A stretch of DNA of 64,000 nucleotides, from NCBI GenBank assembly GCA_964480515.1, contig CAYZOT010000004.1, positions 77,020 through 141,019 of the forward strand, read 5' to 3'. Numbering within the stretch: the stretch's first letter is position 1; each line of letters begins with the position of its first letter. The position numbers and the translations under genes were made by a program. This DNA is from an uncultured Gemmatimonadota bacterium (GTDB lineage Bacteria > Gemmatimonadota > Gemmatimonadetes > Palauibacterales > Palauibacteraceae). Under the pieces are notes generated by a model. The model did no database searches. It was not told the origin of the DNA and saw nothing but the letters and a program-made list of their open reading frames with translations. Positions 1,953 to 14,924 of this stretch are shown piece after piece.

Positions 1953-4667
1953 TCAGGAAGGTTCAGGTTCCACGCGAACAGGGCACACCTTGAGTTCGGC
2001 GGTGTGGGTCACGGGATCGTAGCCTCCACCAGTGAGGACATTGATCGGGACATCGTCGAAACTGAAGCTTGCAAAAACAGTCCCGAGTGGAGAGCGTTTG
2101 TTGGATTCAACTTTTATCCTGACAGATCCCCGAGGGCTTGTGAGTGTACACCAACCGCCATCTTCAAGCCCCCAGGTTGCGACGTCGCCGGGATTAACCT
2201 CTAGGGTCTCCTCCGATAATAGGTAGTCAATCCCCGCTGACCGCCCGGTTTGAGTTCGGGTGTGATAGGCTGCAAGGCGACGCCCCGTGGTGAGCCACAC
2301 GGGGAACTCTCCTGAGATCGTCTCCGCAGGGTCCCGATATTCGATCATTTGAAAGATTCCACGCCCGTTCTCGAACTCACCCTGGTGAAGGATCGGCGTC
2401 CCGGGGTGCTCTTTGTGAGGAACTGGCCACATGTACTCTCCCTGGTCGATTCGATCCCAATCCAATCCAGCGTAGATCGGCGAAAGTCCGCAAAGTTCAT
2501 TGAACACTTCTTTTGCTGAGTCGAACTCGAAGCCTTCAAGCCCCATACGTTGGGCGATTCGCGAAACAATCCACCAATCTGGCTTTGCCTCACCCGGCGG
2601 GGTCACTGCTTTCCGAAGTCGTTGTACGCGCCGCTCGGTATTAGCGCAGACGCCATCTGTTTCGGCCCATGCTGTCGCTGGAAGCACGACATCGGCGAGC
2701 TTCGCTGTCTCGGTGAGAAAAATGTCAATGACAACAAAATGATCGAGACTTTTGAGTGCGTGTTCACAGTGGTCTCGGTTGGGATCAGTGACAACTGTAT
2801 TCTCACCGTTGATAATCATGGCACGGATTAAGTCTCCGCACATATCCAAAGCCTGGACCTTTGTCGGCCCAAGTTCAAGATCAACTTCTTTTCCATAGGC
2901 TTCTGCGAACTTGGCCTGGTTGGCAGGGTCCAGTACCGATTGGAACCCTGGATAATTGTTGGGTAGTGCTCCGCAGTCTCCTGCCCCTTGGATATTGTTT
3001 TGCCCCCGCATCGGATTAATTCCAGTGCCTTCGCGACCAATGTTTCCCGTGACCAGGGCCAGGTTACAAAGGCTCTGAACGTTATCGACACCGCAAATAT
3101 GTTCGGTAATCCCGAGCGTGTAATAGATGGCACCGCGCTCCGCTGCCCCGTACCATTGTGCAGCCTGTTCGATAAGTTTGGCATCAACTCCAGTGATTGA
3201 TTCAGCCCACTCGGGTGGGTACTCGGCAACATGCTCGAGAAATTCGGTTCCTTCCGTGGTTCGCTCTTCGAGGAATGCCTCATCCACCAATCCATCCCTC
3301 GCGATGACATGAGCCATTGCGAGGAGTAACGAAACATCGGAACCGACTCGTAGTGGCAGGTGGATATCGGCGAGCTCTGCCAACGCAACTTGCCTAGGAT
3401 CAGCCACAATCAGCTTCGCCCCTTTGGCGATAGCACGCTTGATTCGCGTGGCAGCAACGGGGTGGCATTCGGTCATATTTGTCCCAATGCAAAAAATTAC
3501 ATCAGGTTTTTCCATGTCATCGAGTGGGTTCGACATGGCTCCTCGACCGATAGAGGCCGCCAGACCGGCGACCGTAGGGGCGTGTCAGGCACGGCTGCAG
3601 TTATCAATTTGATTGGTTCCGAACCCCCCTCGGATGAACCGTTGCATCATGTAAGCAGCTTCATGCGGAGCCCGCCCGGATGCGATCCCATAGACTGATT
3701 GTCGTCCATGATTTTCGGCGGCCTGCGCGAATCCAGTTGCCGCTCGATCGAGTGCCGTATCCCAATCGGTCTCATGGAGTTCACCGTCGTCACCACGGAC
3801 TAACGGTGCGGCGAGTCGTTCGGGGTGTGAAACAAAATCAAATGCAAACTGTCCTTTGACACATAACGCACCCTTGTTGGCGGGACCATCCATAGCAGGC
3901 AGGATCCCGACGACCTTGTCATCTCGCGTCATAACATCGACGGAGCAACCCACTCCACAATAAGGACACACAGTCCGCGTTTTCTCTGTTTCGCCCGGCA
4001 CATCTTTATTTGCAAGTGCTTTCACATCGGCGAGTGCACCAGTTGGACAGGTTTGTATGCATTGTCCGCAGAATGTGCATGCAGAGTCCTTGAGCAATCC
4101 TTCAAACTCGGTGGTGATTTGCGTCTCGAATCCACGGTTCATCATCGAGATCGCATAGTCTCCTTCCTGTTCCGCGCAGACGCGTACACACCTGTAGCAG
4201 GAGATGCAGTTTTCGTAATCACGCAGGATAAAAGGATTGTCGTCGTCTGGTCGGCTCGTGCCCGACCTGGACCCGGCAAAGCGTTTTGTTCGTGCGTCGT
4301 ACCGATCGAGTAGTGTCGCCATCTCAGCTGACGCATAACCTGATAGTGGATCAACATCGAGATCCCGATTCTCAGACCCAACCATCTCCATCAGTACGCG
4401 ACGGTGCATCTCGAGGCGAGCGGACTTGGTTGTGATTTTCATGCCTGATTGCGCGACAGTCGTACAAGAAGCGACTGGGTTTCGGGCACCTTCAATCTCC
4501 ACGATGCAAAGTCGGCACGCCCCGAGCGGTTCGAGACGTGGATCGTAGCACAGCGTGGGGATTGATTTGCGGTGGCGTTCTGAAACTTCGTAGATGGTTT
4601 CTCCACGAGTCACGGGCACACGTTCGCCATCGAGCGTAATCTTGTAGTCGTATTGATTCCGGTCCAA
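1953..4667 (-). CDS. fdhA: formate dehydrogenase alpha subunit (NuoG-like 2Fe-2S/4Fe-4S N-terminus plus molybdopterin domain), selenocysteine-containing; in-frame TGA at 3585-3587 decoded as Sec; TTG start with GGAGGA SD
   Basis: ORFs 3585..4667 and 1953..3536 are in the same frame, separated only by TGA. Read-through gives ...NCSRA-U-HAPTVAGLAASIGRGAMSN..., matching the conserved Sec context C-A-R-V-U-H-G-P-S-V-A-G of E. coli FdhF. N-terminus has CRLCIVEIEG, CISCYRC, CTFCGQC and CPYCGVGC Fe-S motifs. Confidence 0.85.
3550..3584 (-). other. bacterial SECIS-like hairpin immediately 3' of the Sec UGA of fdhA
   Basis: mRNA reads UGA CAC GCC CCU ACG GUC GCC GGU CUG GCG GCC. A 7-bp stem GGUCGCC/GGCGGCC (one G-U pair) with loop GGUCU starts ~11 nt after the UGA. 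The apical GGUCUG is identical to the E. coli fdhF SECIS apex at the same spacing. Confidence 0.6.
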
Positions 4668-4843: not shown

Positions 4844-6505
4844 TCATCGATTTTCGACACACGCCGCAACCTGATCAGGGAAGTACCGTAAGAGGCTTTC
4901 AGTGATTAGAGGGGCTGCTTGGCCTAAACCGCAGGCGCTCGTCTGTTTCATAGTTTGACCCAGATCTGTGACTTCGTCGACCCAGTCGCCAAGGTCAGAG
5001 GGCCCACCACCCGAAAGTCGCTCGGTCAGTCGGTGGGTTCCTATGCGACAAGGGAAACATTTCCCACACGACTCCTCAGCGAAGAATTCCATCGCAGCAT
5101 GTGCCACCTCAACCATATCGCGCGAATCATCGAATACCATGATGCCGCCTGCTCCCAGAAACGATCCTTTCGCTCTAATGCTTGATTCGTCGAGAGTGAC
5201 ATCAAGATCGTCTTTTGCGAGAAATCCTCCAGAGAGCCCTGCCATGGTCACCGCTTGGATATCTCGATTGCCCGGTGCACCTCCTGCCCAGTCCTGAAGC
5301 AACACTTGAAGTGGGAAGCCAAGCGGGACTTCATAGTTCCCCGGTCGCCTGATGTCGCCGGAAAGGCTGATGACTTTAGTCCCGGCGTGATCGCCTATGG
5401 CTAGGTTTCGGTACCAATCCGGTCCCTTGCTGAGAATATGGGGGATCGAAGCAAGCGTCTCCACGTTGTTAACTACAGTAGGGAGATTCTCATACCCGTG
5501 GGTTACCGGGAATGGAGGACGGTTGCGTGGGAAAGGGTGTTTACCTTCGAGGCTGTTAAGCAGAGAAGTCTCTTCCCCACAAATGTATGCTCCTGCGCCT
5601 CGTCGTACCCACAGATTGAATGGGCGGCCCGGCCCGAACGCCTCACTGCCCAGCAATCCTTGAGCCTGGGCTTCTTCGATCGCACGCTCCAGAATGTTCT
5701 GCGTCTCAGGGTACTCGTAGCGTAAATAGATGAACCCTCGGGTGGCCCCGGTTGCGAAACCAGCTGCCAACATGCCCTCAATTACTGCGTGAGGATCATA
5801 GTCCATCAGTGTCCGATCCTTGAAGCAGCCGGGCTCGCCCTCGTCGGCATTACATACAATCGTCTTGGGTTCCCCCTCGGCTTCGGCAACGGCCCTCCAC
5901 TTTCTTCCAGTTGGGAATCCTGCTCCCCCTCGGCCCGCGAGCCCGCTGGCGTCAATTGATTCAAGAAGATCTTGAGGAGAACCTGTAAGGGCGCGGGTCA
6001 GCCCATCATAACCGCCCGTCTCACGATACCCAGCGAGCCCGGCCCGTCCAGGTGTTCTGATTTGGGCGAAAACACACTCTTCTATTTCGTCGGGGCTTTC
6101 CGGTGGAAGGGGTGAATCGACATTTGTGAGAGTCGCCGGAGTGTCACCACAAAGTATTGTGTCGCCATCAAGGACGGGAACGGGTTGGTCGCAGCGACCT
6201 GGGCAGGGCATCGTGGTAGCACCATCTAGCCCATCTACAATCTCTTGAGCTCCGCGTAACGCACAGATTGGCCCGACACAGACCCGTGGTTTCTCCCGTC
6301 CTCCAGGTGTTCGGGCGAAGTGATGGTAAAATGTTACCGTTCCAAACAGGTCTGCAATTGGGATCCCGAGATCAGCTGAGATTGCCCGAAGGGTTTTCTC
6401 AGATAGATACCCATCGCATTGGTGAAACGCGTGTAGCAACGGAAGTAGTGGGGCAGGCTCGTCGCGCCAGGCGGCCAGCAGTTCCCCATCAGAAGGCCTC
6501 TTCAT
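4844..6505 (-). CDS. fdsB: formate dehydrogenase beta subunit (NuoF-like NAD(H)/FMN/4Fe-4S) with fused NuoE-like 2Fe-2S N-terminal domain
   Basis: GRGGAGFPTGRKW FMN/NADH motif, CGKCFPCRIG 4Fe-4S motif, N-terminal thioredoxin-like 2Fe-2S Cys pattern. Directly upstream of fdhA on the same strand. Confidence 0.8.
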   Translation of the reverse strand: MKRPSDGELLAAWRDEPAPLLPLLHAFHQCDGYLSEKTLRAISADLGIPIADLFGTVTFYHHFARTPGGREKPRVCVGPICALRGAQEIVDGLDGATTMPCPGRCDQPVPVLDGDTILCGDTPATLTNVDSPLPPESPDEIEECVFAQIRTPGRAGLAGYRETGGYDGLTRALTGSPQDLLESIDASGLAGRGGAGFPTGRKWRAVAEAEGEPKTIVCNADEGEPGCFKDRTLMDYDPHAVIEGMLAAGFATGATRGFIYLRYEYPETQNILERAIEEAQAQGLLGSEAFGPGRPFNLWVRRGAGAYICGEETSLLNSLEGKHPFPRNRPPFPVTHGYENLPTVVNNVETLASIPHILSKGPDWYRNLAIGDHAGTKVISLSGDIRRPGNYEVPLGFPLQVLLQDWAGGAPGNRDIQAVTMAGLSGGFLAKDDLDVTLDESSIRAKGSFLGAGGIMVFDDSRDMVEVAHAAMEFFAEESCGKCFPCRIGTHRLTERLSGGGPSDLGDWVDEVTDLGQTMKQTSACGLGQAAPLITESLLRYFPDQVAACVENR

Positions 6506-6589: not shown

Positions 6590-7429
6590 ATGATCTCTCC
6601 TCGTCGCAGCATGGTGCGCATAGACGTCAATCGTTTTGCTGGAAAATCATCCCGCAATCGCCGAGATGCGGTAGCGGTTGAGGAACCACTCGAGATCCGA
6701 TTGGCTACACCGCAAGGTGACGAGCACCAGGTAGCCGTTACGATGCGTACCCCAGGCGACGACTTTGACCTTACCGCCGGATTCCTCTTCTCGGAAGGTT
6801 TGATTCAACGGCGGTCCGATGTTTTGGATCTTCGATACTGCACCAATGTTGATGTCCAGGAATACAATGTTATGACTGTGCAGCTAAGTGAGGGTACGAG
6901 CTTCAACCCCACTGATCTGACTCGAAACTTTTATACCACCTCGAGCTGCGGAGTATGCGGAAAGGCGTCACTAGAGGCGATCGAGATACAAGGGTGCACG
7001 CCTCTTCTTGAGGATGGGCTTGTGATTAAGAGTCAGGTGATCCGAACGTTACCAAGCGTGCTTCGAGAAGGGCAACAAATATTTGAACGTACCGGAGGCC
7101 TCCACGCAGCGGGGTTGTTCAACGTTGACGGAGATCTCCAAATCCTCCGTGAGGATGTGGGTCGACACAACGCGCTCGATAAAGTGATTGGGAACCGGTT
7201 TCTAGAAGACGGTTTGCCGCTTAAAGGATCGGTTCTCGCGGTCAGTGGTCGAGCTTCATTCGAGATTATGCAAAAAGCTCTGATGGCAGGTGTTGCTGTG
7301 ATTGTAGCAGTCGGCGCTCCCTCGAGCCTTGCGGTGGATGTGGCGAGCGAGTTCGGTATGACCCTAGTTGGGTTTACCAAAGAGGCGGGGTTTAATGTTT
7401 ATGCTGGAACCTCGCGCGTCTCCTTGTGA
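6590..7429 (+). CDS. fdhD: formate dehydrogenase accessory sulfurtransferase FdhD
   Basis: SSCGVCGK active-site motif and size (279 aa). Divergently placed next to the fds operon. Confidence 0.8.
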   Translation: MISPRRSMVRIDVNRFAGKSSRNRRDAVAVEEPLEIRLATPQGDEHQVAVTMRTPGDDFDLTAGFLFSEGLIQRRSDVLDLRYCTNVDVQEYNVMTVQLSEGTSFNPTDLTRNFYTTSSCGVCGKASLEAIEIQGCTPLLEDGLVIKSQVIRTLPSVLREGQQIFERTGGLHAAGLFNVDGDLQILREDVGRHNALDKVIGNRFLEDGLPLKGSVLAVSGRASFEIMQKALMAGVAVIVAVGAPSSLAVDVASEFGMTLVGFTKEAGFNVYAGTSRVSL

Positions 7430-8936: not shown

Positions 8937-9187
8937 GCCGGCTTTCTCCGTGTTTGTGATTTAGGCTGTTGATGAGCCGATGGCGTCTCGTTTCCCCGAC
9001 GGCACCTCGACCCTTCAGGCCATTGTAAGGTGAACTGGGCTGCCTTGGCCCGCGATAGGGCTTATGATCAGGGAGCGAAATTTCTTGAGTTCATCCAAAG
9101 AGGAGGAGAGGGCTATAATCTCCGAGAGATTGAACTGACACCTTGGTTTGCTTGCCCGAAACTGTGAACTTTGCTTAGCTTTGAGTC

Positions 9188-10438
9188 GTGACCAAGAGCA
9201 CACCCCAGGCCGCCAGATCGCATTCGGAGCCTCTACTTGCAGCAGCCAGCCCGCTGCCGGAGATCTTCGCTAAATGTCTAGCGTTCACGCGCGCGCGTGA
9301 ACTGCGGGCAATTGGCCTCTACCCCTACTTTATGCCCATCGAGGAATCGCATGACACCTATGTGGTGATCAAGGGGGAAAAGAAGATCATGGTGGGCTCT
9401 AATAATTACATGGGGCTCACACACGACCCACGAATTCTTGAAGCTGCACGTGATGCACTAGACACATTTGGTAGCGGGAATACAGGAAGTCGTTTTCTTA
9501 ACGGAAACCTTGATCTGCATGATCGTCTTGAAGAAGAGCTGGCAGATTTCGTGGGCATGGAAGAGGCTTTGGTGTTTTCCACTGGATATCAGACCAATGT
9601 GGGAACGTTAGGTGCATTGATAGGGCGCAGTGACACCGTATATGTGGATAAGCTTGATCACGCGAGCATTCAAGACGGTGTCCGTTTGGGCCTGGGCCGT
9701 GTGCAGCGCTTCAATCACGGAGACTACACAAGTCTCCATAGGATGCTACAAGCTGACAAGCCGGAACGTGGAAAGCTAATTGCTATCGACGGTGTCTTTA
9801 GTATGGAGGGTGACATCGCCGACCTTCCGGCATTGGTCGCACTTAAACGTGAGTTTGGGGCGGCTCTTGTCGTTGACGATGCGCATGCCGTTGGTGTTCT
9901 TGGAGAAACCGGAGCCGGAACGGCCGAACACTGGGGCCTAACGGATGAAGTCGACATTATCCTCGGAACTTTCTCGAAATCATTTGCCTCGATCGGAGGG
10001 TTCTGTGCCGGAAAGGCCGATGTGATCGATTATCTTCGGAATCATGCGCGAGCCTTGATGTTTAGTGCGAGCATGCCACCGGCGTCGGTAGCAACGGTGC
10101 TCAAAGCCCTCGAGATCATTCGTTCAGAGCCAGAGCGGCGTGAACGGTTGTGGGCAAACACGTACAAAATGATGGAAGGGTTTAAATCAATCGGTTTTGA
10201 CATCGGACCCACCGAGACGCCGATCGTGCCAATTCTCGTCGGCCCTATGGAGAAGACCCTTCAGTTTGGACGGGCGCTGTTTGAGGCGGGGGTGTTTGCC
10301 AATCCGGTTGTGCCCCCAGCAGTTCCCGAAGGTCAGGGCCGTCTGCGGACGAGCTATATGGCGACTCACACTGACGAAGAACTTGATTTTGTGCTCGATC
10401 AGGTCCACCGCGTAGCTAAAAAACTCGACATCGTCTGA
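9188..10438 (+). CDS. PLP-dependent alpha-oxoamine synthase, serine palmitoyltransferase-like
   Basis: GSNNYMGL ... FGSGNTGSRFLNG ... FSTGYQTN ... DHASIQDG ... TFSKSF (PLP lysine), the AOS family pattern (SPT/Kbl/BioF). The SPT call rests on genomic context. Confidence 0.65.
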   Translation: MTKSTPQAARSHSEPLLAAASPLPEIFAKCLAFTRARELRAIGLYPYFMPIEESHDTYVVIKGEKKIMVGSNNYMGLTHDPRILEAARDALDTFGSGNTGSRFLNGNLDLHDRLEEELADFVGMEEALVFSTGYQTNVGTLGALIGRSDTVYVDKLDHASIQDGVRLGLGRVQRFNHGDYTSLHRMLQADKPERGKLIAIDGVFSMEGDIADLPALVALKREFGAALVVDDAHAVGVLGETGAGTAEHWGLTDEVDIILGTFSKSFASIGGFCAGKADVIDYLRNHARALMFSASMPPASVATVLKALEIIRSEPERRERLWANTYKMMEGFKSIGFDIGPTETPIVPILVGPMEKTLQFGRALFEAGVFANPVVPPAVPEGQGRLRTSYMATHTDEELDFVLDQVHRVAKKLDIV

Positions 10439-10486
10439 CGGATCGGTGTGTAAGCGTGCGACCGATCAGCTAGAACGCCTCACAAT

Positions 10487-11632
10487 GTGGTCAACCTAAT
10501 GACGTCGCATCCTTCGTCTGTTCTCAGAGTAATTCCGGTCGTGACGCGAGAAGATCTAAACCAGTTCATCTCCTTACCTTGGTCTATCTACGGTGACGAT
10601 CCACACTGGGTTCCTCCACTGAAGTCAGATGTGCGAAATGCATTCGATCATGAAAAGCATCCTTTTCATAGACACTCCGAGGCACAACCGTTTCTAGCGC
10701 TTCGGGATTCGGTACCCGTCGGGCGAATATGCGCGATTCGCAACCGTAATCATGAAACGTTTCATAAGGAGCCGGTGGGCTTCTTCGGGTGGTTTGAGTG
10801 TGTGGACGATGTTGAAGTGGCGGCTGCCCTTTTCGATGTAGTTCGGAAATGGCTCCGTCTCCGTGATCTCAAGATCATGCGAGGCCCGACGAGCTTTTCC
10901 ACAAACGAGACATGCGGCCTGCTTATAGATGGTGAACCAGGTCCGCCGTCCGTCATGATGGCATACAACCCCAAGTATTATCCCAACCTTTTGCAAGCGT
11001 GTGGCCTCACAAAAGTAAAAGACCTCTATGCCTGGCAAATGGACGATCAAATGGATATGGGGTACTTATTGCGAGGAGAAAAGCTTGTAACACGTCGCTA
11101 CGGGATCACGATGCGGTCGCTCGACATGGCTAAGTTCGATACGGAGTTGGAGACGGTCAGGTCGATCTATAATGCGGCATGGGAGAAAAACTGGGGTTTT
11201 GTGCCCATGACGGATGGAGAGATTGATCATATGGCAGCTGAACTCAAACCGATCTTGGAACCGAAGCTTGCCTTGTTTGTTGAAGATCCAGACGGGGTAC
11301 CAATCGGTTTTGCACTAGCCTTGCCAGACTTCAACCAGGTTCTCAAGAAGATGGATGGCAAACTGTGGCCTTTTGGCATCCTTAAGGCGCTCATCGCAAA
11401 GCGCCGAATCAACTGGATGCGTGTGATCATTCTCGGGCTCGTTGAGGAATGGCGTGGAAAAGGGATCGATGTTCTGCTTTATCTCGGTATGATTCGAGCT
11501 GGCAGGGAGGTTGGGATCACAGAGGGGGAGCAGTCTTGGATTCTTGAGGACAATGACAAGATGAACGCCTCGATCAAGCGTCTTGGGGGTCAGATGTACC
11601 GTACCTACCGCCTCTACGAAATTCCCCTATAA
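10487..11632 (+). CDS. GNAT-fold N-acyltransferase-like protein (candidate bacterial ceramide synthase)
   Basis: 381 aa, two acyltransferase-like halves, no TM segments. 49 bp downstream of the SPT-like gene on the same strand. Confidence 0.45.
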   Translation: MVNLMTSHPSSVLRVIPVVTREDLNQFISLPWSIYGDDPHWVPPLKSDVRNAFDHEKHPFHRHSEAQPFLALRDSVPVGRICAIRNRNHETFHKEPVGFFGWFECVDDVEVAAALFDVVRKWLRLRDLKIMRGPTSFSTNETCGLLIDGEPGPPSVMMAYNPKYYPNLLQACGLTKVKDLYAWQMDDQMDMGYLLRGEKLVTRRYGITMRSLDMAKFDTELETVRSIYNAAWEKNWGFVPMTDGEIDHMAAELKPILEPKLALFVEDPDGVPIGFALALPDFNQVLKKMDGKLWPFGILKALIAKRRINWMRVIILGLVEEWRGKGIDVLLYLGMIRAGREVGITEGEQSWILEDNDKMNASIKRLGGQMYRTYRLYEIPL

Positions 11633-11655
11633 ATGCTTTACTTTATCACTTTACC

Positions 11656-12651
11656 ATGATTTTCCTAACGGGAGCAACAGGTTTTCTCGGTAGCCATGTT
11701 GCTGAGAAATTGGTGGAAAATGGTCACAAGGTCCGGTGTAGTATTCGAAGGACGAGCAATAAGCGGTGGATCAATTCCATTGACGTGGAAACTGTTGAAC
11801 TGGATTTGGGTACAGTAAGGCAGGCTTTACAGTCCGACGCAGCCGAAGAGCCTAAATCTAATGAGGGGAGTGTAACGCCGCCCAAGGCTCTCGAGGGCGT
11901 TGAGATTGTGATTCACTGCGGCGGGCTCACAAGTGCGCGCAATGAAGATGAGTTTATGGCGGTGAATGCAGCGGGTACTGCAGAATTGGCGAAAGCTGCG
12001 TCAGCTGCAGGAGTTGCTCGGTTTATATATATCAGCAGTCTCGCAGCGCGTGGACCGGATGGCGCGAGTGGACCTGTGACTCCCTATGGTCGTTCTAAAC
12101 TATTGGGCGAGCGACTGTTAGAGGAAAATAAAGGCGATATGACGACTGTTGTTCTCCGGCCCGGTGGTATTTATGGGGCACGCGACTCGGCACTCCTACC
12201 TCTGTTTCAGATGGCAACGCGAGGGTGGATGGTAGTCCCGCGAAGCGAGGTGCCACTTCAACCGGTCTACGTTTCAGATGTTGTGACGGCAACAATCGCA
12301 GCAATAGACGCACCGACGGTGGATAAGCCGGTCGAGATAGCAGGAGCCCCAAAATATCGGTGGGAAGAGTTGGCGCAGGTGGTGGGAGCTGCGGTTGGAG
12401 ATGGAGTGCGCGTGGTTCGAGTACCCATGGCCTTTCTCAGGGCGGCGGGTCTTGTGTCCGAGCTTGGGGCTAAACTTGTGGGCAGATTGCCGGCGGTGGA
12501 TCGGAGAAAAGTACGAGACATCGGCCACCATTCATGGACATGCGACATTGAAGAGGCGGGAAGGCTCCTTGAAGGTTGGAAACCACGAGTGGAGCTGAAC
12601 GACGGGATGTCGCGCACGTTTGTTTGGTATCGTCAAGCGGGATGGATGTGA
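11656..12651 (+). CDS. NAD(P)-dependent epimerase/dehydratase-family reductase (candidate 3-ketosphinganine/ceramide reductase)
   Basis: N-terminal TGATGFLGSHV Rossmann motif, 331 aa. 24 bp after the preceding gene. Confidence 0.6.
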   Translation: MIFLTGATGFLGSHVAEKLVENGHKVRCSIRRTSNKRWINSIDVETVELDLGTVRQALQSDAAEEPKSNEGSVTPPKALEGVEIVIHCGGLTSARNEDEFMAVNAAGTAELAKAASAAGVARFIYISSLAARGPDGASGPVTPYGRSKLLGERLLEENKGDMTTVVLRPGGIYGARDSALLPLFQMATRGWMVVPRSEVPLQPVYVSDVVTATIAAIDAPTVDKPVEIAGAPKYRWEELAQVVGAAVGDGVRVVRVPMAFLRAAGLVSELGAKLVGRLPAVDRRKVRDIGHHSWTCDIEEAGRLLEGWKPRVELNDGMSRTFVWYRQAGWM

Positions 12652-13532
12652 CAGACGCTCAGGGATTATTGGCGGTCGATCGGCTAACTCGGGTTTATTT
12701 GGGAGTTACCGCCATCTTCGCTGTGGTTTTTGGTGGGATGACGGGGTTAGTCATCGCCGGAATCCATGCGGTCGCTTATCTGGCGATTACGCCACTGGCA
12801 CGCTGGCGGCCAGAAAACGGCCTTCTCGGTTTTCTGAGAGTGTCCTATCCAGTGGCGTTGGCACCCGTTTTATATGCCGAAATTGCTACGCTGAATCGTT
12901 TTTTTACGGAAAGTTTTTTCGATGGTTTAGTACAAAGTTGGGATGCCAAACTTTTTGGGGGGCAACCCAGCATTGAGCTTAGTTCCGCGTTACCGTGGCT
13001 GCCTTTATCCGAAGTGCTTCACTTCGCCTATTTTGGGTACTACGGTATAGTCCCGGTAGCGCTGATTGGGGTTTTTTGTACCAAAGGTTTTGCAGCGTTA
13101 CACCGCACCGCGTTTGTAGTCGCCACCGCATTTTTTGCTTGTTACCTGATTTTTATGGTTTTCCCGGTTGCCGGACCTCGGTATGAGTTCGCGCGGATTG
13201 AAGGACCAATTAGCGAGGGTGCATTTTACGGGTTGGTGCACACAATTTTGGAGAGCGGCTCTTCAAAAGGTGCCGCCTTTCCGAGTTCTCATATTGCGGC
13301 ATCCCTAGCGGCTGTTCTGGGTGCAGCACGGGAAGATACACGATGGTTCTGGCTTTTGATCGTTCCGGAGATCGCCCTCGCTGTAGGTACCGTCTATGGG
13401 CGTTTCCATTATGCAATCGATGCGTTGGCAGGGTTTGCGTTGGCCGTTTTGATCTGGAGATTCGACCGAAGGCTCTTTGGGTTTTTCAGCCCTAGGCAAC
13501 CTGTGCTGGGATCGAGGTATCCAACGGAGTGA
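12642..13532 (+). CDS. PAP2-family integral membrane enzyme (phosphatase/headgroup transferase superfamily)
   Basis: Multiple TM helices. PAP2 motifs PSSH and Y-G-R-F-H-Y-A-I-D (SRx5Hx3D-like). ATG at 12642 overlaps the stop of the upstream reductase (ATGGATGTGA); the ORF-track start at 12576 is probably too long. Confidence 0.6.
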   Translation: MDVTDAQGLLAVDRLTRVYLGVTAIFAVVFGGMTGLVIAGIHAVAYLAITPLARWRPENGLLGFLRVSYPVALAPVLYAEIATLNRFFTESFFDGLVQSWDAKLFGGQPSIELSSALPWLPLSEVLHFAYFGYYGIVPVALIGVFCTKGFAALHRTAFVVATAFFACYLIFMVFPVAGPRYEFARIEGPISEGAFYGLVHTILESGSSKGAAFPSSHIAASLAAVLGAAREDTRWFWLLIVPEIALAVGTVYGRFHYAIDALAGFALAVLIWRFDRRLFGFFSPRQPVLGSRYPTE

Positions 13533-14119
13533 TGTCGGAGAGCAGTGTGGCGAGGAGCTGCGTGGAAGAAGACAATCTGATCACCAGGGCAAAAGCAGGT
13601 GACCGCTCCGCGATGGGTGAACTGCATGAACTTCACGCACGTCGAGTATATACCGCTGTACGTCGTTTAGTAGGAAACGATCAGCTTGCTGAAGATCTTT
13701 CACAAGAAGCTTGGATCCGGGCGTTCGAGAAACTTGATCTGTTCAGGGGTGAAGCTGCATTTGGGACCTGGTTGTACCGTTTGGCGACCAATGTGGCACT
13801 CAATTATTTGCGGCGTTCATCGAAGAGAAGCTCCGTAGAAGCTGAGGCCAATCTTCCACGTGTCACGAAAGCTCAGGACGACGTGATTGTCGCAAGGCAT
13901 GTTTTGATGCAAGCGATTGATCAACTGCCCCCAGGATATCGCCGTGTCTTAGTCCTACATGATGTTGAGGGCTGGACCCACCAGGAAATTGCTCGGTCAC
14001 TCAGCTGTTCTCCCGGCACGTCGAAATCACAGTTACACAAAGCTCGAGCCCGAATGCGCGAACTAATGCAACCCGTCAGTTCGAGTAATGATGGCATGCG
14101 CGATAAAGCGAGTTTGTAG
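13529..14119 (+). CDS. RNA polymerase ECF-type sigma-70 factor
   Basis: Region 2 (EDLSQEAWIRAFEKLDLF) and region 4 HTH (GWTHQEIARSLSCSPGTSKSQLHKARARM). Confidence 0.8.
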   Translation: MMSESSVARSCVEEDNLITRAKAGDRSAMGELHELHARRVYTAVRRLVGNDQLAEDLSQEAWIRAFEKLDLFRGEAAFGTWLYRLATNVALNYLRRSSKRSSVEAEANLPRVTKAQDDVIVARHVLMQAIDQLPPGYRRVLVLHDVEGWTHQEIARSLSCSPGTSKSQLHKARARMRELMQPVSSSNDGMRDKASL

Positions 14120-14924
14120 GAATTTTGGTGAACGGTATAGACAGATGAATCAATCGGCGTCGGAACACCTGACAGCAGAACAAATCTCTGAGTTGCTCGA
14201 TGAGCCACGGAAGGACAAAGAGGATTGGTTCCATCTAGAAACGTGCGAGGAGTGCAGGGCGGAATTTGAACGGTTTAGCCGTATTCGCATGGCGCTATCG
14301 GCACTGCCGGACTTGGACCCTCCGGCCGATGAGTGGACGGCAATCGAGGCGAAATTGGATTCAAAGGAGCCTCGGATCAACCAAAGCATATTAGGATTTA
14401 GTTGGGATGCGGAGCGCCCTCATTTCATTTTCGGTTCGCACCAGTTGGCCGTTGCCGCTGCTGTTGCTGTTGTCGTTTTTGCGGCGGGTGTTTTCGCCGG
14501 GCTTCAGCTTCCGGGTCCGATTGGGTTTTTTGCTGAAAACACATTACAACCTGGCCTCTTGGCGCCCGCGGTCCAAGATGAAATCGTTTTGAATGAACCG
14601 ACGGAGCTTGAGTCGCAGCGCTCGCCGATACAACAGGCAGGTATGAGTGCTTTCGAGGGGGTGGAATTTGAGCCTGTTCGTCGTTATGAAGGTCGCTCGG
14701 GTCTTCTTGTACTCCGCGTAACACCACGTACGGCCGCGGCAAAACTAGGCTTACGGTCTGGAGACGTCGTGGTTGACGCAGGGAACCTGCCTACTCGTCA
14801 AGTCCCTGACCTGATCCAAGCCATAAACGCTTCTCAAGGGTCACCCCTCAGTGTTCGTTGGATCCGGAATGGGCGCGAAATGGTAAAACTTTGGCCAGCA
14901 AGTGAAATCCGGCCCAAAGAATAG
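14088..14924 (+). CDS. anti-sigma factor: zinc-finger N-domain, single TM helix, periplasmic PDZ-like domain (start may be at the internal Met ~14148)
   Basis: H-x3-C-x2-C (HLETCEECRAEF), hydrophobic segment AVAAAVAVVVFAAGVFAGL, C-terminal GLRSGDVVVDAGN... PDZ-like pattern. Overlaps the sigma gene. Confidence 0.6.
   Translation: MMACAIKRVCRNFGERYRQMNQSASEHLTAEQISELLDEPRKDKEDWFHLETCEECRAEFERFSRIRMALSALPDLDPPADEWTAIEAKLDSKEPRINQSILGFSWDAERPHFIFGSHQLAVAAAVAVVVFAAGVFAGLQLPGPIGFFAENTLQPGLLAPAVQDEIVLNEPTELESQRSPIQQAGMSAFEGVEFEPVRRYEGRSGLLVLRVTPRTAAAKLGLRSGDVVVDAGNLPTRQVPDLIQAINASQGSPLSVRWIRNGREMVKLWPASEIRPKE

What the first reader, a model, noticed from the sequence alone, without database searches (positions are those of the whole stretch)
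9188..13532. Compact four-gene candidate bacterial sphingolipid/ceramide biosynthesis locus
Four tightly packed same-strand genes (spacers 49 bp, 24 bp, then a 10-nt overlap). They are a serine-palmitoyltransferase-like alpha-oxoamine synthase (PLP Lys in TFSKSF; the GSNNYMGL...FGSGNTGSRFLNG...FSTGYQTN...DHASIQDG pattern closely follows bacterial SPT), a GNAT-fold N-acyltransferase-like protein, an NAD-dependent epimerase/dehydratase-family reductase, and a PAP2 membrane enzyme. This mirrors the components described for the Caulobacter-type ceramide pathway (Spt, a GNAT-like ceramide synthase, and an epimerase/dehydratase-family reductase CerR), with an added PAP2 enzyme as a plausible headgroup transferase. 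Such a minimal, ACP-less, PAP2-containing arrangement may be an undescribed variant of a bacterial sphingolipid pathway. The alternative reading is that the AOS is a Kbl/BioF paralog making a different aminolipid (e.g. sulfonolipid-like).
Basis: inference. Interest (0 to 1): 0.8.

Follow-up and report, generated by a model that had tools for sequence, protein, structure and literature searches.

The report
Gemmatimonadota ceramide operon with Aur1-like transferase
This is a four-gene operon in a marine Gemmatimonadota bacterium that most likely makes a phosphorylated sphingolipid through the already described bacterial ceramide pathway (Spt, bCerS, CerR) plus a membrane enzyme resembling yeast inositol-phosphoceramide synthase, so it is a clean new example of a known system rather than a new system.

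Summary
Four same-strand genes sit at 9188-13532, with gaps of 48 (or 60) nt and 23 nt, then a 10-nt overlap.

- **Gene 1** is a serine palmitoyltransferase. It is 52% identical to the characterised Sphingobacterium SPT, its best HMM is the SPT equivalog, and it falls outside Kbl/BioF in a tree.
- **Gene 2** is a tandem-GNAT protein of the YghO/bCerS family. It is 34-37% identical over its full length to the proteins that occupy the bCerS position in the E. coli and Roseomonas Caulobacter-type sphingolipid clusters. It lies next to an SPT gene in 49 of 56 informative loci from about 12 phyla and occurs as natural SPT-GNAT fusions.
- **Gene 3** is the CerR-type extended SDR.

An arrangement without an ACP gene is the rule outside Alpha-/Beta-/Gammaproteobacteria. 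Spt-bCerS-CerR clustering is published. An Aur1-type ceramide phosphotransferase already has a bacterial precedent, BT_1522.

What remains open is the head group that the PAP2_3 enzyme adds, and whether it is a transferase or a phosphatase.

Verdict: new member of a known kind; interest about 0.38.

The parts
9188..10438 (+). spt: serine palmitoyltransferase (PLP-dependent alpha-oxoamine synthase). PLP Lys264 in TFSKSF; His158; Asp231/His233.
   Evidence: Pfam Aminotran_1_2, 196 bits. Best NCBIfam hit is SerpalmtaseCFB at 520 bits, below its 640 cut-off but above BioF (394) and Kbl (378). Best PDB hit is Sphingobacterium multivorum SPT 3a2b/8guh at 433 bits, aligned without gaps over residues 29-414; the next non-SPT hit scores 298. 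In an NJ tree it sits in a clade containing SmSPT, with Kbl and BioF outside.
10487..11632 (+). bcerS-like N-acyltransferase (YghO family, tandem GNAT). The likely true start is ATG at 10499 (377 aa). It has an acyl-CoA-type RGKG motif at residues 323-326 and conserved NWGFVPMT and SWILEDN motifs.
11656..12651 (+). cerR-like NAD(P)H-dependent extended SDR (3-keto reductase). GATGFLG at residues 6-12; Tyr144-x3-Lys148.
   Evidence: Pfam Epimerase 93 bits and 3Beta_HSD 76 bits. It is 29% identical (2e-35) to the NAD-dependent epimerase/dehydratase inside the E. coli spt-acp-SDR-FAAL operon, and 32% identical to the Roseomonas SDR. Both this protein and the E. coli one give HpnA at about 90 bits as best NCBIfam hit. 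It lies within 5 kb of the GNAT gene in 56 of 80 loci.
12642..13532 (+). Aur1-like PAP2_3 integral membrane enzyme, the candidate ceramide phospho-head-group transferase. Motifs PVAGPR (175-180), FPSSH (His217) and RFHYAID (His256, Asp260). It overlaps the cerR stop codon by 10 nt.
13529..14119 (+). ECF sigma factor whose GTG start overlaps the PAP2 stop codon by 4 nt. It is possibly co-transcribed. Its relation to the lipid genes is uncertain.
   Evidence: Sigma70_r2 and Sigma70_r4_2. The adjacency is kept only in the closest Gemmatimonadota loci: L001-L005 and L024.
14088..14924 (+). Putative anti-sigma factor with a C-terminal PDZ domain, partner of the ECF sigma. Its relation to the lipid genes is uncertain.
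   Evidence: NCBIfam anti-sigma NF052375 at 33 bits (weak), plus PDZ_6 and PDZ_2. Weak homologues follow the sigma gene in L001-L004.

Best explanation
The locus is an operon for de novo synthesis of a phosphosphingolipid by the bacterial ceramide pathway. The steps are as follows.

1. Spt (9188-10438) condenses L-serine with a long-chain acyl-CoA to give 3-ketodihydrosphingosine. No dedicated ACP or acyl-ACP synthetase is encoded, as with the Bacteroidota-type enzyme it most resembles.
2. The tandem-GNAT bCerS/YghO-family enzyme (10499-11632) N-acylates the long-chain base from a second acyl-CoA.
3. The CerR-type extended SDR (11656-12651) reduces the 3-keto group with NAD(P)H to give dihydroceramide.
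4. The Aur1-like PAP2_3 membrane enzyme (12642-13532) uses its His217/His256/Asp260 site to move a phospho-alcohol head group from a glycerophospholipid donor (PE, PG or PI) onto the ceramide C1 hydroxyl, releasing diacylglycerol.

What is shown: gene identities by homology, fold, fusions and conserved synteny. What is inferred: substrates, the order of steps 2 and 3 (disputed even in Caulobacter), the transferase chemistry of step 4, its head group, and co-transcription.
For: Spt:
- 433 bits to Sphingobacterium multivorum SPT, against at most 298 bits for any non-SPT structure, aligned without gaps over 386 residues.
- Its best NCBIfam model is an SPT equivalog.
- In the tree it groups with SmSPT, with Kbl and BioF outside.

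bCerS:
- It is homologous over its full length to E. coli YghO. YghO lies divergent to an operon that PGAP annotates as spt / acyl carrier protein / NAD-dependent epimerase-dehydratase / fatty acyl-AMP ligase, beside LptF/LptG paralogues.
- It is also homologous to the Roseomonas mucosa plasmid gene that sits after an LptF/LptG pair and before an NTP-transferase gene.
- That is the layout described for Caulobacter CC_1156 / CC_1155 / CC_1154 (bCerS) / CC_1153 (PMC11324152 and its supplement).
- The GNAT gene has an SPT-like AOS within 5 kb in 49 of 56 informative loci, and the SDR in 45 of 56, across about 12 phyla.
- Fused SPT-GNAT proteins exist in nature.
- The fold is tandem GNAT, like MshD and N-myristoyltransferase.

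CerR.

PAP2_3:
- The Pfam hit is above the cut-off and the catalytic motifs are conserved.
- The closest solved fold is Aur1 IPC synthase.
- PAP2_3 genes are linked to spt clusters in Gemmatimonadota, Eisenbacteria, Acidobacteriota, Myxococcota, Nitrospirota and Latescibacterota, in different gene orders.
- The AUR1 homologue BT_1522 is required for phosphoinositol-dihydroceramide in Bacteroides (PMC9246714).
Against: - There are no lipid data for this organism or any Gemmatimonadota. None was found in the searchable library.
- The AOS scores below the curated cut-off of the CFB SPT equivalog (520 against 640).
- I could not align gene 2 directly with CC_1154/CCNA_01212, or gene 4 with BT_1522, because neither sequence was obtainable. 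Membership rests on positional orthologues.
- The PAP2 His/His/Asp site is shared by phosphatases and phosphotransferases, so the fold cannot decide the chemistry.
- A profile of the PAP2 family finds no PDB sequence, Aur1 included, at E <= 10. The Aur1 relationship is therefore at the level of fold and Pfam family only (17% identity).
- No promoter or terminator call supports the operon boundaries.
- In 33 of 56 informative loci no PAP2_3 gene lies near the GNAT gene. It is an accessory gene, not a core one.
Confidence: 0.8

Rival explanations
1. Genes 1-3 make dihydroceramide as above, but the PAP2 protein is a lipid phosphate phosphatase rather than a head-group transferase. Possible substrates are ceramide-1-phosphate, sphingoid-base-1-phosphate, undecaprenyl-PP or lipid A. 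It would act in turnover or remodelling of envelope lipids.
Against: The best Pfam family is PAP2_3, not the generic PAP2 family (57 against 23 bits). From my own knowledge, PAP2_3 is the Aur1/Ipt1 family. The Aur1 alignment covers 234 residues, against about 160 for the phosphatases. The C3 motif is H-Y-x-x-D, as in the SMS/IPC-synthase type, and reads HYTVDV in the Acidobacteriota homologues (the motif comparison is from my own knowledge). A phosphatase would need a kinase to make its substrate, and none is linked in any of the loci inspected.
Confidence: 0.22
2. The AOS is not a serine palmitoyltransferase. It is a paralogue that uses another amino acid (cysteate, glycine or alanine), so the operon makes a sulfonolipid/capnoid or another N-acyl amino-ketone lipid rather than a ceramide.
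For: AOS substrate specificity cannot be read with certainty from sequence. The score is below the curated equivalog cut-off. Bacterial Spt is reported to accept alanine, giving 1-deoxyceramides (PMC11334938 supplement; PMC10191378).
Against: The protein is 52% identical to an experimentally characterised SPT and nests with it in the tree. The Alistipes SulA structure and the cysteate-C-fatty acyltransferase score only 246 and 236 bits. The partner genes are the bCerS and CerR families, not the sulfonolipid genes.
Confidence: 0.06
3. The adjacency is fortuitous and the four genes have unrelated functions.
For: None beyond the weak promoter and terminator evidence.
Against: The order is conserved at 42-79% protein identity in Gemmatimonadota. 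There is cross-phylum linkage and there are gene fusions. Genes 3 and 4 have overlapping stop and start codons.
Confidence: 0.02

Closest known systems
Caulobacter crescentus ceramide pathway: Spt CC_1162, bCerS CC_1154/CCNA_01212, CerR CC_1164/CCNA_01222 (Olea-Ozuna 2021; Stankeviciute 2022; PMC11324152, PMC11087976)
   Same: The same three enzyme families: an AOS-type Spt, a GNAT-type N-acyltransferase and an epimerase/dehydratase-type SDR. Gene 2 is 34-37% identical over its full length to the proteins at the bCerS position in the E. coli and Roseomonas versions of this cluster.
   Different: There is no dedicated ACP (AcpR), acyl-ACP synthetase (AasR), LptF2/G2, ceramide kinase or phosphoglycerate genes in the window. 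[quoted passage not shown] The Spt is of the Bacteroidota (acyl-CoA) type. The head-group chemistry differs: an Aur1-like PAP2_3 enzyme instead of the CerK/Cpg route.
Sphingobacterium multivorum serine palmitoyltransferase (PDB 3A2B, 8GUH)
   Same: 52% identity in an alignment without gaps; the PLP lysine and the His/Asp/His residues are conserved.
   Different: The window protein has an N-terminal extension of about 28 residues. It comes from a different phylum. In Bacteroidota spt is reported not to be clustered with bcerS and cerR (PMC11334938).
BT_1522 of Bacteroides thetaiotaomicron (AUR1 homologue, phosphoinositol-dihydroceramide synthase; PMC9246714) and yeast Aur1 (PDB 9IVC)
   Different: BT_1522 sits in an inositol-lipid cluster (MIPS, PIP synthase, PIP phosphatase) and not with spt. 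Here the gene is translationally coupled to cerR, and no inositol genes are nearby. Identity to Aur1 is only 17%, and no Kei1-like partner is evident. The donor and head group are unknown. No direct comparison with BT_1522 was possible.
E. coli yghO locus: spt-acp-SDR-FAAL divergent from yghO (RefSeq/PGAP annotation)
   Same: A homologous Spt (38-40% identity), SDR (29%) and GNAT (34%).
   Different: The E. coli cluster is the proteobacterial ACP-dependent type with LptF/G paralogues. It has no PAP2_3 gene, and yghO is transcribed divergently.

Membership tests
Bacterial serine palmitoyltransferase (alpha-oxoamine synthase family) | PLP-binding lysine and the conserved His / Asp-x-x-His active-site residues of AOS enzymes | tested here: met
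   TFSK(264)SF, DH(158)ASI and DD(231)AH(233) align column for column with SmSPT.
Bacterial serine palmitoyltransferase (alpha-oxoamine synthase family) | Scores above the curated cut-off of an SPT equivalog HMM | tested here: not met
   NF047600 SerpalmtaseCFB is the top hit at 520.5 bits, but its cut-off is 640. NF047599 scores 408 against a cut-off of 500. These models are clade-specific (CFB, Betaproteobacteria, Alphaproteobacteria), and there is none for Gemmatimonadota.
Bacterial serine palmitoyltransferase (alpha-oxoamine synthase family) | Groups with characterised SPT rather than with Kbl, BioF or the cysteate acyltransferases | tested here: met
   PDB bit scores: SPT 433; BioF/Kbl 298; Kbl 266; SulA-like 246; cysteate acyltransferase 236. 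In the NJ tree SmSPT nests inside the clade, with Kbl and BioF outside. No bootstrap was run.
Bacterial serine palmitoyltransferase (alpha-oxoamine synthase family) | Condenses L-serine with a long-chain acyl thioester | not testable with these tools
   Needs an enzyme assay or lipidomics.
bCerS (bacterial ceramide synthase; YghO-like GNAT) | Sequence homology to Caulobacter CC_1154/CCNA_01212 | not tested
   The sequence could not be obtained: the paper is not held and the single genome scan returned only the 80 closest loci.
bCerS (bacterial ceramide synthase; YghO-like GNAT) | Homology to the acyltransferase at the bCerS position of Caulobacter-type sphingolipid clusters | tested here: met
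   37% identity (8e-72) over the full length to the Roseomonas mucosa plasmid gene lying between the LptF/LptG pair and the NTP-transferase gene. 34% identity (2e-71) to E. coli YghO beside spt-acp-SDR-FAAL. The layout matches PMC11324152.
bCerS (bacterial ceramide synthase; YghO-like GNAT) | GNAT acyl-CoA N-acyltransferase fold | tested here: met
bCerS (bacterial ceramide synthase; YghO-like GNAT) | Genomic association with spt and cerR | tested here: met
   Within 5 kb of the GNAT gene, 64 of 80 loci have an AOS and 56 of 80 have the SDR (49 and 45 of the 56 informative loci). SPT-GNAT fusions also exist.
CerR (bacterial ceramide reductase; extended SDR) | Rossmann GxxGxxG motif and catalytic YxxxK of extended SDRs | tested here: met
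   G6ATGFLG12; Y144GRSK148. Pfam Epimerase/3Beta_HSD.
CerR (bacterial ceramide reductase; extended SDR) | Homology to the reductase encoded in characterised-type spt operons | tested here: met
   29% identity (2e-35) to the SDR of the E. coli spt operon and 32% to the Roseomonas one. A direct comparison with CC_1164 was not possible.
CerR (bacterial ceramide reductase; extended SDR) | Periplasmic location, as reported for Caulobacter CerR (PMC11087976) | tested here: inconclusive
   The Rossmann motif starts at residue 6, so no N-terminal signal peptide is possible. The export route of Caulobacter CerR is itself unexplained.
Aur1/IPC-synthase-type PAP2_3 phosphotransferases | Match to PF14378 above the gathering score | tested here: met
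   57.1 bits against a cut-off of 27, covering profile positions 16-188 of 190. Spt-linked homologues from four other phyla score 55-80 bits.
Aur1/IPC-synthase-type PAP2_3 phosphotransferases | Catalytic His (C2) and His...Asp (C3, H-Y-x-x-D) | tested here: met
   FPSSH217 and H256YAID260 are invariant in A3 and conserved in 29 spt-linked homologues.
Aur1/IPC-synthase-type PAP2_3 phosphotransferases | Overall fold closer to Aur1 than to the PAP2 phosphatases | tested here: met
Aur1/IPC-synthase-type PAP2_3 phosphotransferases | Detectable sequence similarity to a solved or characterised member (Aur1, BT_1522) | tested here: inconclusive
   A profile search of the PDB sequences finds nothing at E <= 10.
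Aur1/IPC-synthase-type PAP2_3 phosphotransferases | Transfers a phospho-alcohol from a glycerophospholipid to ceramide | not testable with these tools
   Needs a biochemical assay.

The most novel reading that the evidence does not exclude
The spt-linked PAP2_3 proteins may form a previously uncharacterised bacterial clade of ceramide phosphotransferases. They occur in Gemmatimonadota, Eisenbacteria, Acidobacteriota, Myxococcota, Nitrospirota and Latescibacterota. They would install a non-inositol head group (phosphoethanolamine or phosphoglycerol) directly from PE or PG. This would give the first gene for that step in bacteria and predict phosphosphingolipids as envelope components of Gemmatimonadota. 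No paper in the library I could search names the enzyme for this step.
Probability: 0.35. Interest if true: 0.55.

Novelty: new member of a known kind. Interest (0 to 1): 0.38.

Why it matters
The locus adds Gemmatimonadota, an abundant but little-cultured soil and marine phylum, to the bacteria predicted to make sphingolipids.

It also provides a compact, ACP-independent four-gene cassette that could be expressed as a unit. Its main practical value is the fourth gene. The recurring linkage of an Aur1-like PAP2_3 enzyme to spt-bcerS-cerR in six phyla nominates a concrete, testable candidate for the head-group step of bacterial phosphosphingolipid synthesis.

The core pathway itself is already known.

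Tried and rejected
- **Caulobacter sequences.** Direct comparison with CCNA_01212 and CCNA_01222 failed. PMC8891067 is not held, and the supplements of PMC11334938 and PMC11324152 hold no sequences.
- **AlphaFold-database fold search.** The afdb50 library was not installed.
- **Genome scan with a diverse GNAT alignment (A2).** Alignment A1 was used instead, which biased the 80 returned loci towards the closest relatives.
- **PDB sequence searches for the GNAT and PAP2 proteins.** They found nothing useful. Fold comparison was needed.
- **Promoter and terminator scan.** Counts were at or below the shuffled expectation, so it was uninformative.
- **Proteobacterial accessory genes in the window.** I searched for ACP, fatty acyl-AMP ligase, LptF/G paralogues, DAG/ceramide kinase, CDP-alcohol transferase, sterol desaturase and NTP transferase. 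None was found.
- **The 'Zc3h12a-like RNase' Pfam hit on gene 2.** At 21 bits it is below the cut-off, and I rejected it as noise.
- **Sulfonolipid/Kbl/BioF reading of gene 1.** Considered and rejected.
- **A functional link between the ECF sigma/anti-sigma pair and the lipid genes.** Considered but not adopted, because the adjacency is confined to the nearest relatives.
- **Membrane topology of the PAP2 protein from loop charges.** A crude analysis was inconclusive.


Full report
**Observation**

The window carries four consecutive + strand ORFs at 9188-10438 (416 aa), 10487-11632 (381 aa), 11656-12651 (331 aa) and 12642-13532 (296 aa from its ATG). I read the junctions base by base.
- The first gap is 48 nt, or 60 nt if gene 2 starts at ATG 10499. 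That start is likelier because the homologues are 376-377 aa.
- The second gap is 23 nt.
- Genes 3 and 4 overlap by 10 nt (ATGGATGTGA).

Everything else, including each quoted motif, is present. The flanking genes are unrelated housekeeping genes: FdhD, a pyridine-nucleotide disulfide oxidoreductase and isocitrate dehydrogenase. Gene 4 is followed by an ECF sigma factor whose GTG start overlaps the gene-4 stop codon by 4 nt, and then by an anti-sigma/PDZ protein. The closest homologues of genes 2 and 4 come from Gemmatimonadota, several named Candidatus Palauibacter. The window is therefore from that phylum.

**Gene 1 is a serine palmitoyltransferase**
- Its best NCBIfam model is the SPT equivalog of the Cytophaga-Flavobacteria-Bacteroides group, at 520 bits. 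A second SPT model follows at 408 bits, then BioF (394) and Kbl (378). It does not reach the clade-specific cut-off of 640.
- Against all solved structures, the best match is Sphingobacterium multivorum SPT at 433 bits. The alignment covers residues 29-414 without gaps. The best non-SPT hit scores 298 bits. The Alistipes sulfonolipid enzyme and a cysteate-C-fatty acyltransferase score 246 and 236 bits.
- I built a neighbour-joining tree of this protein, 60 syntenic AOS proteins from other genomes, SmSPT, E. coli Spt, E. coli Kbl and E. coli BioF. All the syntenic proteins and SmSPT fall in one clade. E. coli Spt is its sister, and Kbl and BioF lie outside. Identities to the window protein are 52%, 38%, 36% and 32%.

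**Gene 2 belongs to the bCerS/YghO family**

The family is large: 1530 clusters at 50% identity have E <= 1e-30. It includes natural fusion proteins. P0250 and P0359 are full-length fusions of about 780 aa, and P0291 (648 aa) is truncated at the N-terminus. Their N-terminal part is an SPT-like AOS.

I could not obtain the Caulobacter bCerS sequence, so I tested membership through positional orthologues.
- A tblastn search of plasmids found a 37%-identical, full-length match on a Roseomonas mucosa replicon.
- That replicon also carries a fatty acyl-AMP ligase, an SDR, an acyl carrier protein, a PLP-dependent aminotransferase, a DAG-kinase-family protein and an LptF/LptG pair. The GNAT homologue follows the LptF/LptG pair, after one intervening sterol-desaturase gene, and an NTP-transferase gene comes directly after it.
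- This matches the published Caulobacter region: aasR-cerR-acpR-spt, the ceramide kinase, lptF2/lptG2 (CC_1156/CC_1155), cerS (CC_1154), and the MobA-like NTP transferase CC_1153 (PMC11324152 and its supplement).
- The protein is also 34% identical (2e-71) to E. coli YghO. YghO lies divergent to an operon that RefSeq annotates as fatty acyl-AMP ligase / NAD-dependent epimerase-dehydratase / acyl carrier protein / spt, beside LptF/LptG paralogues. The E. coli Spt passes the curated SPT cut-off, at 600 bits against 500.

**Synteny**

A scan of one genome per GTDB species returned the 80 closest loci. They come from Gemmatimonadota, Eisenbacteria, Bacteroidota, Ignavibacteria, Zixibacteria, Acidobacteriota, Myxococcota, Chloroflexota, Planctomycetota, Nitrospirota, Latescibacterota and others. 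The table gives the number of loci with each gene within 5 kb of the GNAT gene. "Informative" loci have at least 2.5 kb of sequence on both sides.

| Gene within 5 kb of GNAT | All 80 loci | 56 informative loci |
|---|---|---|
| SPT-like AOS | 64 | 49 |
| SDR | 56 | 45 |
| PAP2 homologue | 28 | 23 |

The four-gene order of the window recurs in Gemmatimonadota at 42-79% protein identity.

**Gene 3 is the CerR-type reductase**

It is an extended SDR, with GATGFLG at residues 6-12 and Y144-x3-K148. It is 29% identical (2e-35) to the SDR of the E. coli spt operon and 32% identical to the Roseomonas one. Both this protein and the E. coli one give the same weak best NCBIfam hit, HpnA at about 90 bits. 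It has no room for a signal peptide. The periplasmic location reported for Caulobacter CerR (PMC11087976) can therefore be neither confirmed nor excluded here.

**Gene 4 is an Aur1-like PAP2_3 protein**
- It matches PF14378 at 57 bits, against a cut-off of 27, and the generic PAP2 family at only 23 bits.
- The motifs PVAGPR, FPSSH217 and RFH256YAID260 are invariant among close homologues. They are conserved in 29 spt-linked homologues from six phyla. In the Acidobacteriota and Nitrospirota homologues they read FPSGHT and RYHY(T/V)(V/I)DV.
- Those distant homologues are also PAP2_3 by Pfam, at 55-80 bits.
- There is a bacterial precedent. BT_1522, an AUR1 homologue, is required for phosphoinositol-dihydroceramide in Bacteroides thetaiotaomicron, while PE-dihydroceramide persists in that mutant (PMC9246714).
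- The linkage survives rearrangement. The order is SDR-PAP2-GNAT-AOS in Bryobacterales. In Myxococcota the PAP2 gene lies upstream of the cluster on the opposite strand. This argues for a functional tie to the ceramide genes.

**Mechanism**

The most likely reading has four steps.
1. Spt makes 3-ketodihydrosphingosine from serine and acyl-CoA. No ACP or acyl-ACP synthetase is encoded in the 64 kb. This fits the statement that Bacteroidetes-type Spt uses acyl-CoA, whereas Alpha-, Beta- and Gammaproteobacteria use AcpR (PMC11324152).
2. The tandem-GNAT enzyme N-acylates the base.
3. The SDR reduces the 3-keto group to give dihydroceramide. The order of steps 2 and 3 is debated in the literature (PMC11087976).
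4. The Aur1-like enzyme transfers a phospho-head group from a glycerophospholipid to ceramide.

Steps 1-3 rest on homology, fusions and synteny, and I rate the ceramide-pathway identity at about 0.8-0.85. Step 4 is inferred from family, fold, motifs and linkage, and I rate it at about 0.55-0.6. The main rival is a lipid phosphate phosphatase, at about 0.2-0.25. The head group is unknown, and no inositol-synthesis genes are nearby.

**Comparison with the known and novelty**

The Spt-bCerS-CerR pathway, its wide phylogenetic spread and its frequent genomic clustering are published (PMC11087976, PMC11324152, PMC11334938). The absence of an ACP gene is the expected state outside the proteobacterial group. 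An Aur1-type ceramide phosphotransferase in bacteria is known.

Three things I did not find described:
- the recurring placement of a PAP2_3 gene inside or next to spt clusters in several phyla. No paper in the library contains both 'bacterial sphingolipid' and 'PAP2', and two related searches gave nothing;
- any report of sphingolipids in Gemmatimonadota;
- an enzyme named for the PE-dihydroceramide step.

The library is incomplete, so these absences are weak evidence. I therefore class the locus as a new member of a known kind, with moderate interest. The fourth gene is the part worth an experiment.

Noticed in passing
window 1953-4667, - strand: Two same-frame ORFs are separated only by an in-frame TGA at 3585-3587. 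The first (3585-4667) has Fe-S and Molybdop_Fe4S4 domains; the second (1953-3536) has Molybdopterin and Molydop_binding domains. Translation across the TGA reads IDNCSRA*HAPTVAGL, the classic selenocysteine motif of formate dehydrogenase. This is probably one Sec-containing FdhA-type gene, next to a NuoF-like gene (4844-6505) and FdhD (6590-7429).
   Followed up: partly
window 13529-14924, + strand: The start of an ECF sigma factor overlaps the PAP2 stop codon by 4 nt (GTGA), and an anti-sigma/PDZ protein follows. The pairing with the lipid operon is kept only in the nearest Gemmatimonadota loci (L001-L005, L024). It may mean the envelope-stress regulator is co-transcribed with the sphingolipid genes.
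   Followed up: partly
L084 (E. coli strain 1943, NZ_CP023359.1 796521-812321) and L082: Most complete E. coli genomes carry a Caulobacter-type cluster next to glcC. It was matched in 4593 of 5426 genomes, and 4065 have at least 80% of the 5.8-kb query. It consists of lptF/lptG paralogues, spt (named serine palmitoyltransferase by PGAP, 600 bits against a cut-off of 500), acyl carrier protein, NAD-dependent epimerase/dehydratase, fatty acyl-AMP ligase, and divergent yghO. YghO is thus the E. coli bCerS-family protein. As far as I know, E. coli is not regarded as a sphingolipid producer.
   Followed up: partly
P0250, P0359, P0291, P0241; L059 and L073: Natural single-polypeptide SPT-GNAT fusions exist: P0250 and P0359 (about 780 aa) and the N-terminally truncated P0291 (648 aa). 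There is also a 784-aa protein made of two tandem copies of the GNAT family. Two Myxococcota loci carry two paralogous GNAT genes flanking the SDR.
   Followed up: partly
L083 / L087 (Roseomonas mucosa plasmid p1-AD2, NZ_CP025188.1 about 57-78 kb): A 415-kb replicon of this human-skin commensal carries a complete Caulobacter-like sphingolipid region: FAAL, SDR, ACP, Spt, a DAG-kinase-family protein, a CDP-alcohol phosphatidyltransferase, LptF/G, a sterol-desaturase-family protein, the bCerS homologue and an NTP transferase. The bCerS homologue is mis-annotated 'dATP pyrophosphohydrolase'.
   Followed up: no
window 9115-9120: A perfect TATAAT hexamer lies about 70 nt upstream of the spt start, in the 251-nt intergenic region shared with the divergent oxidoreductase gene. 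No matching -35 element lies at standard spacing, and the promoter scan did not call it.
   Followed up: no
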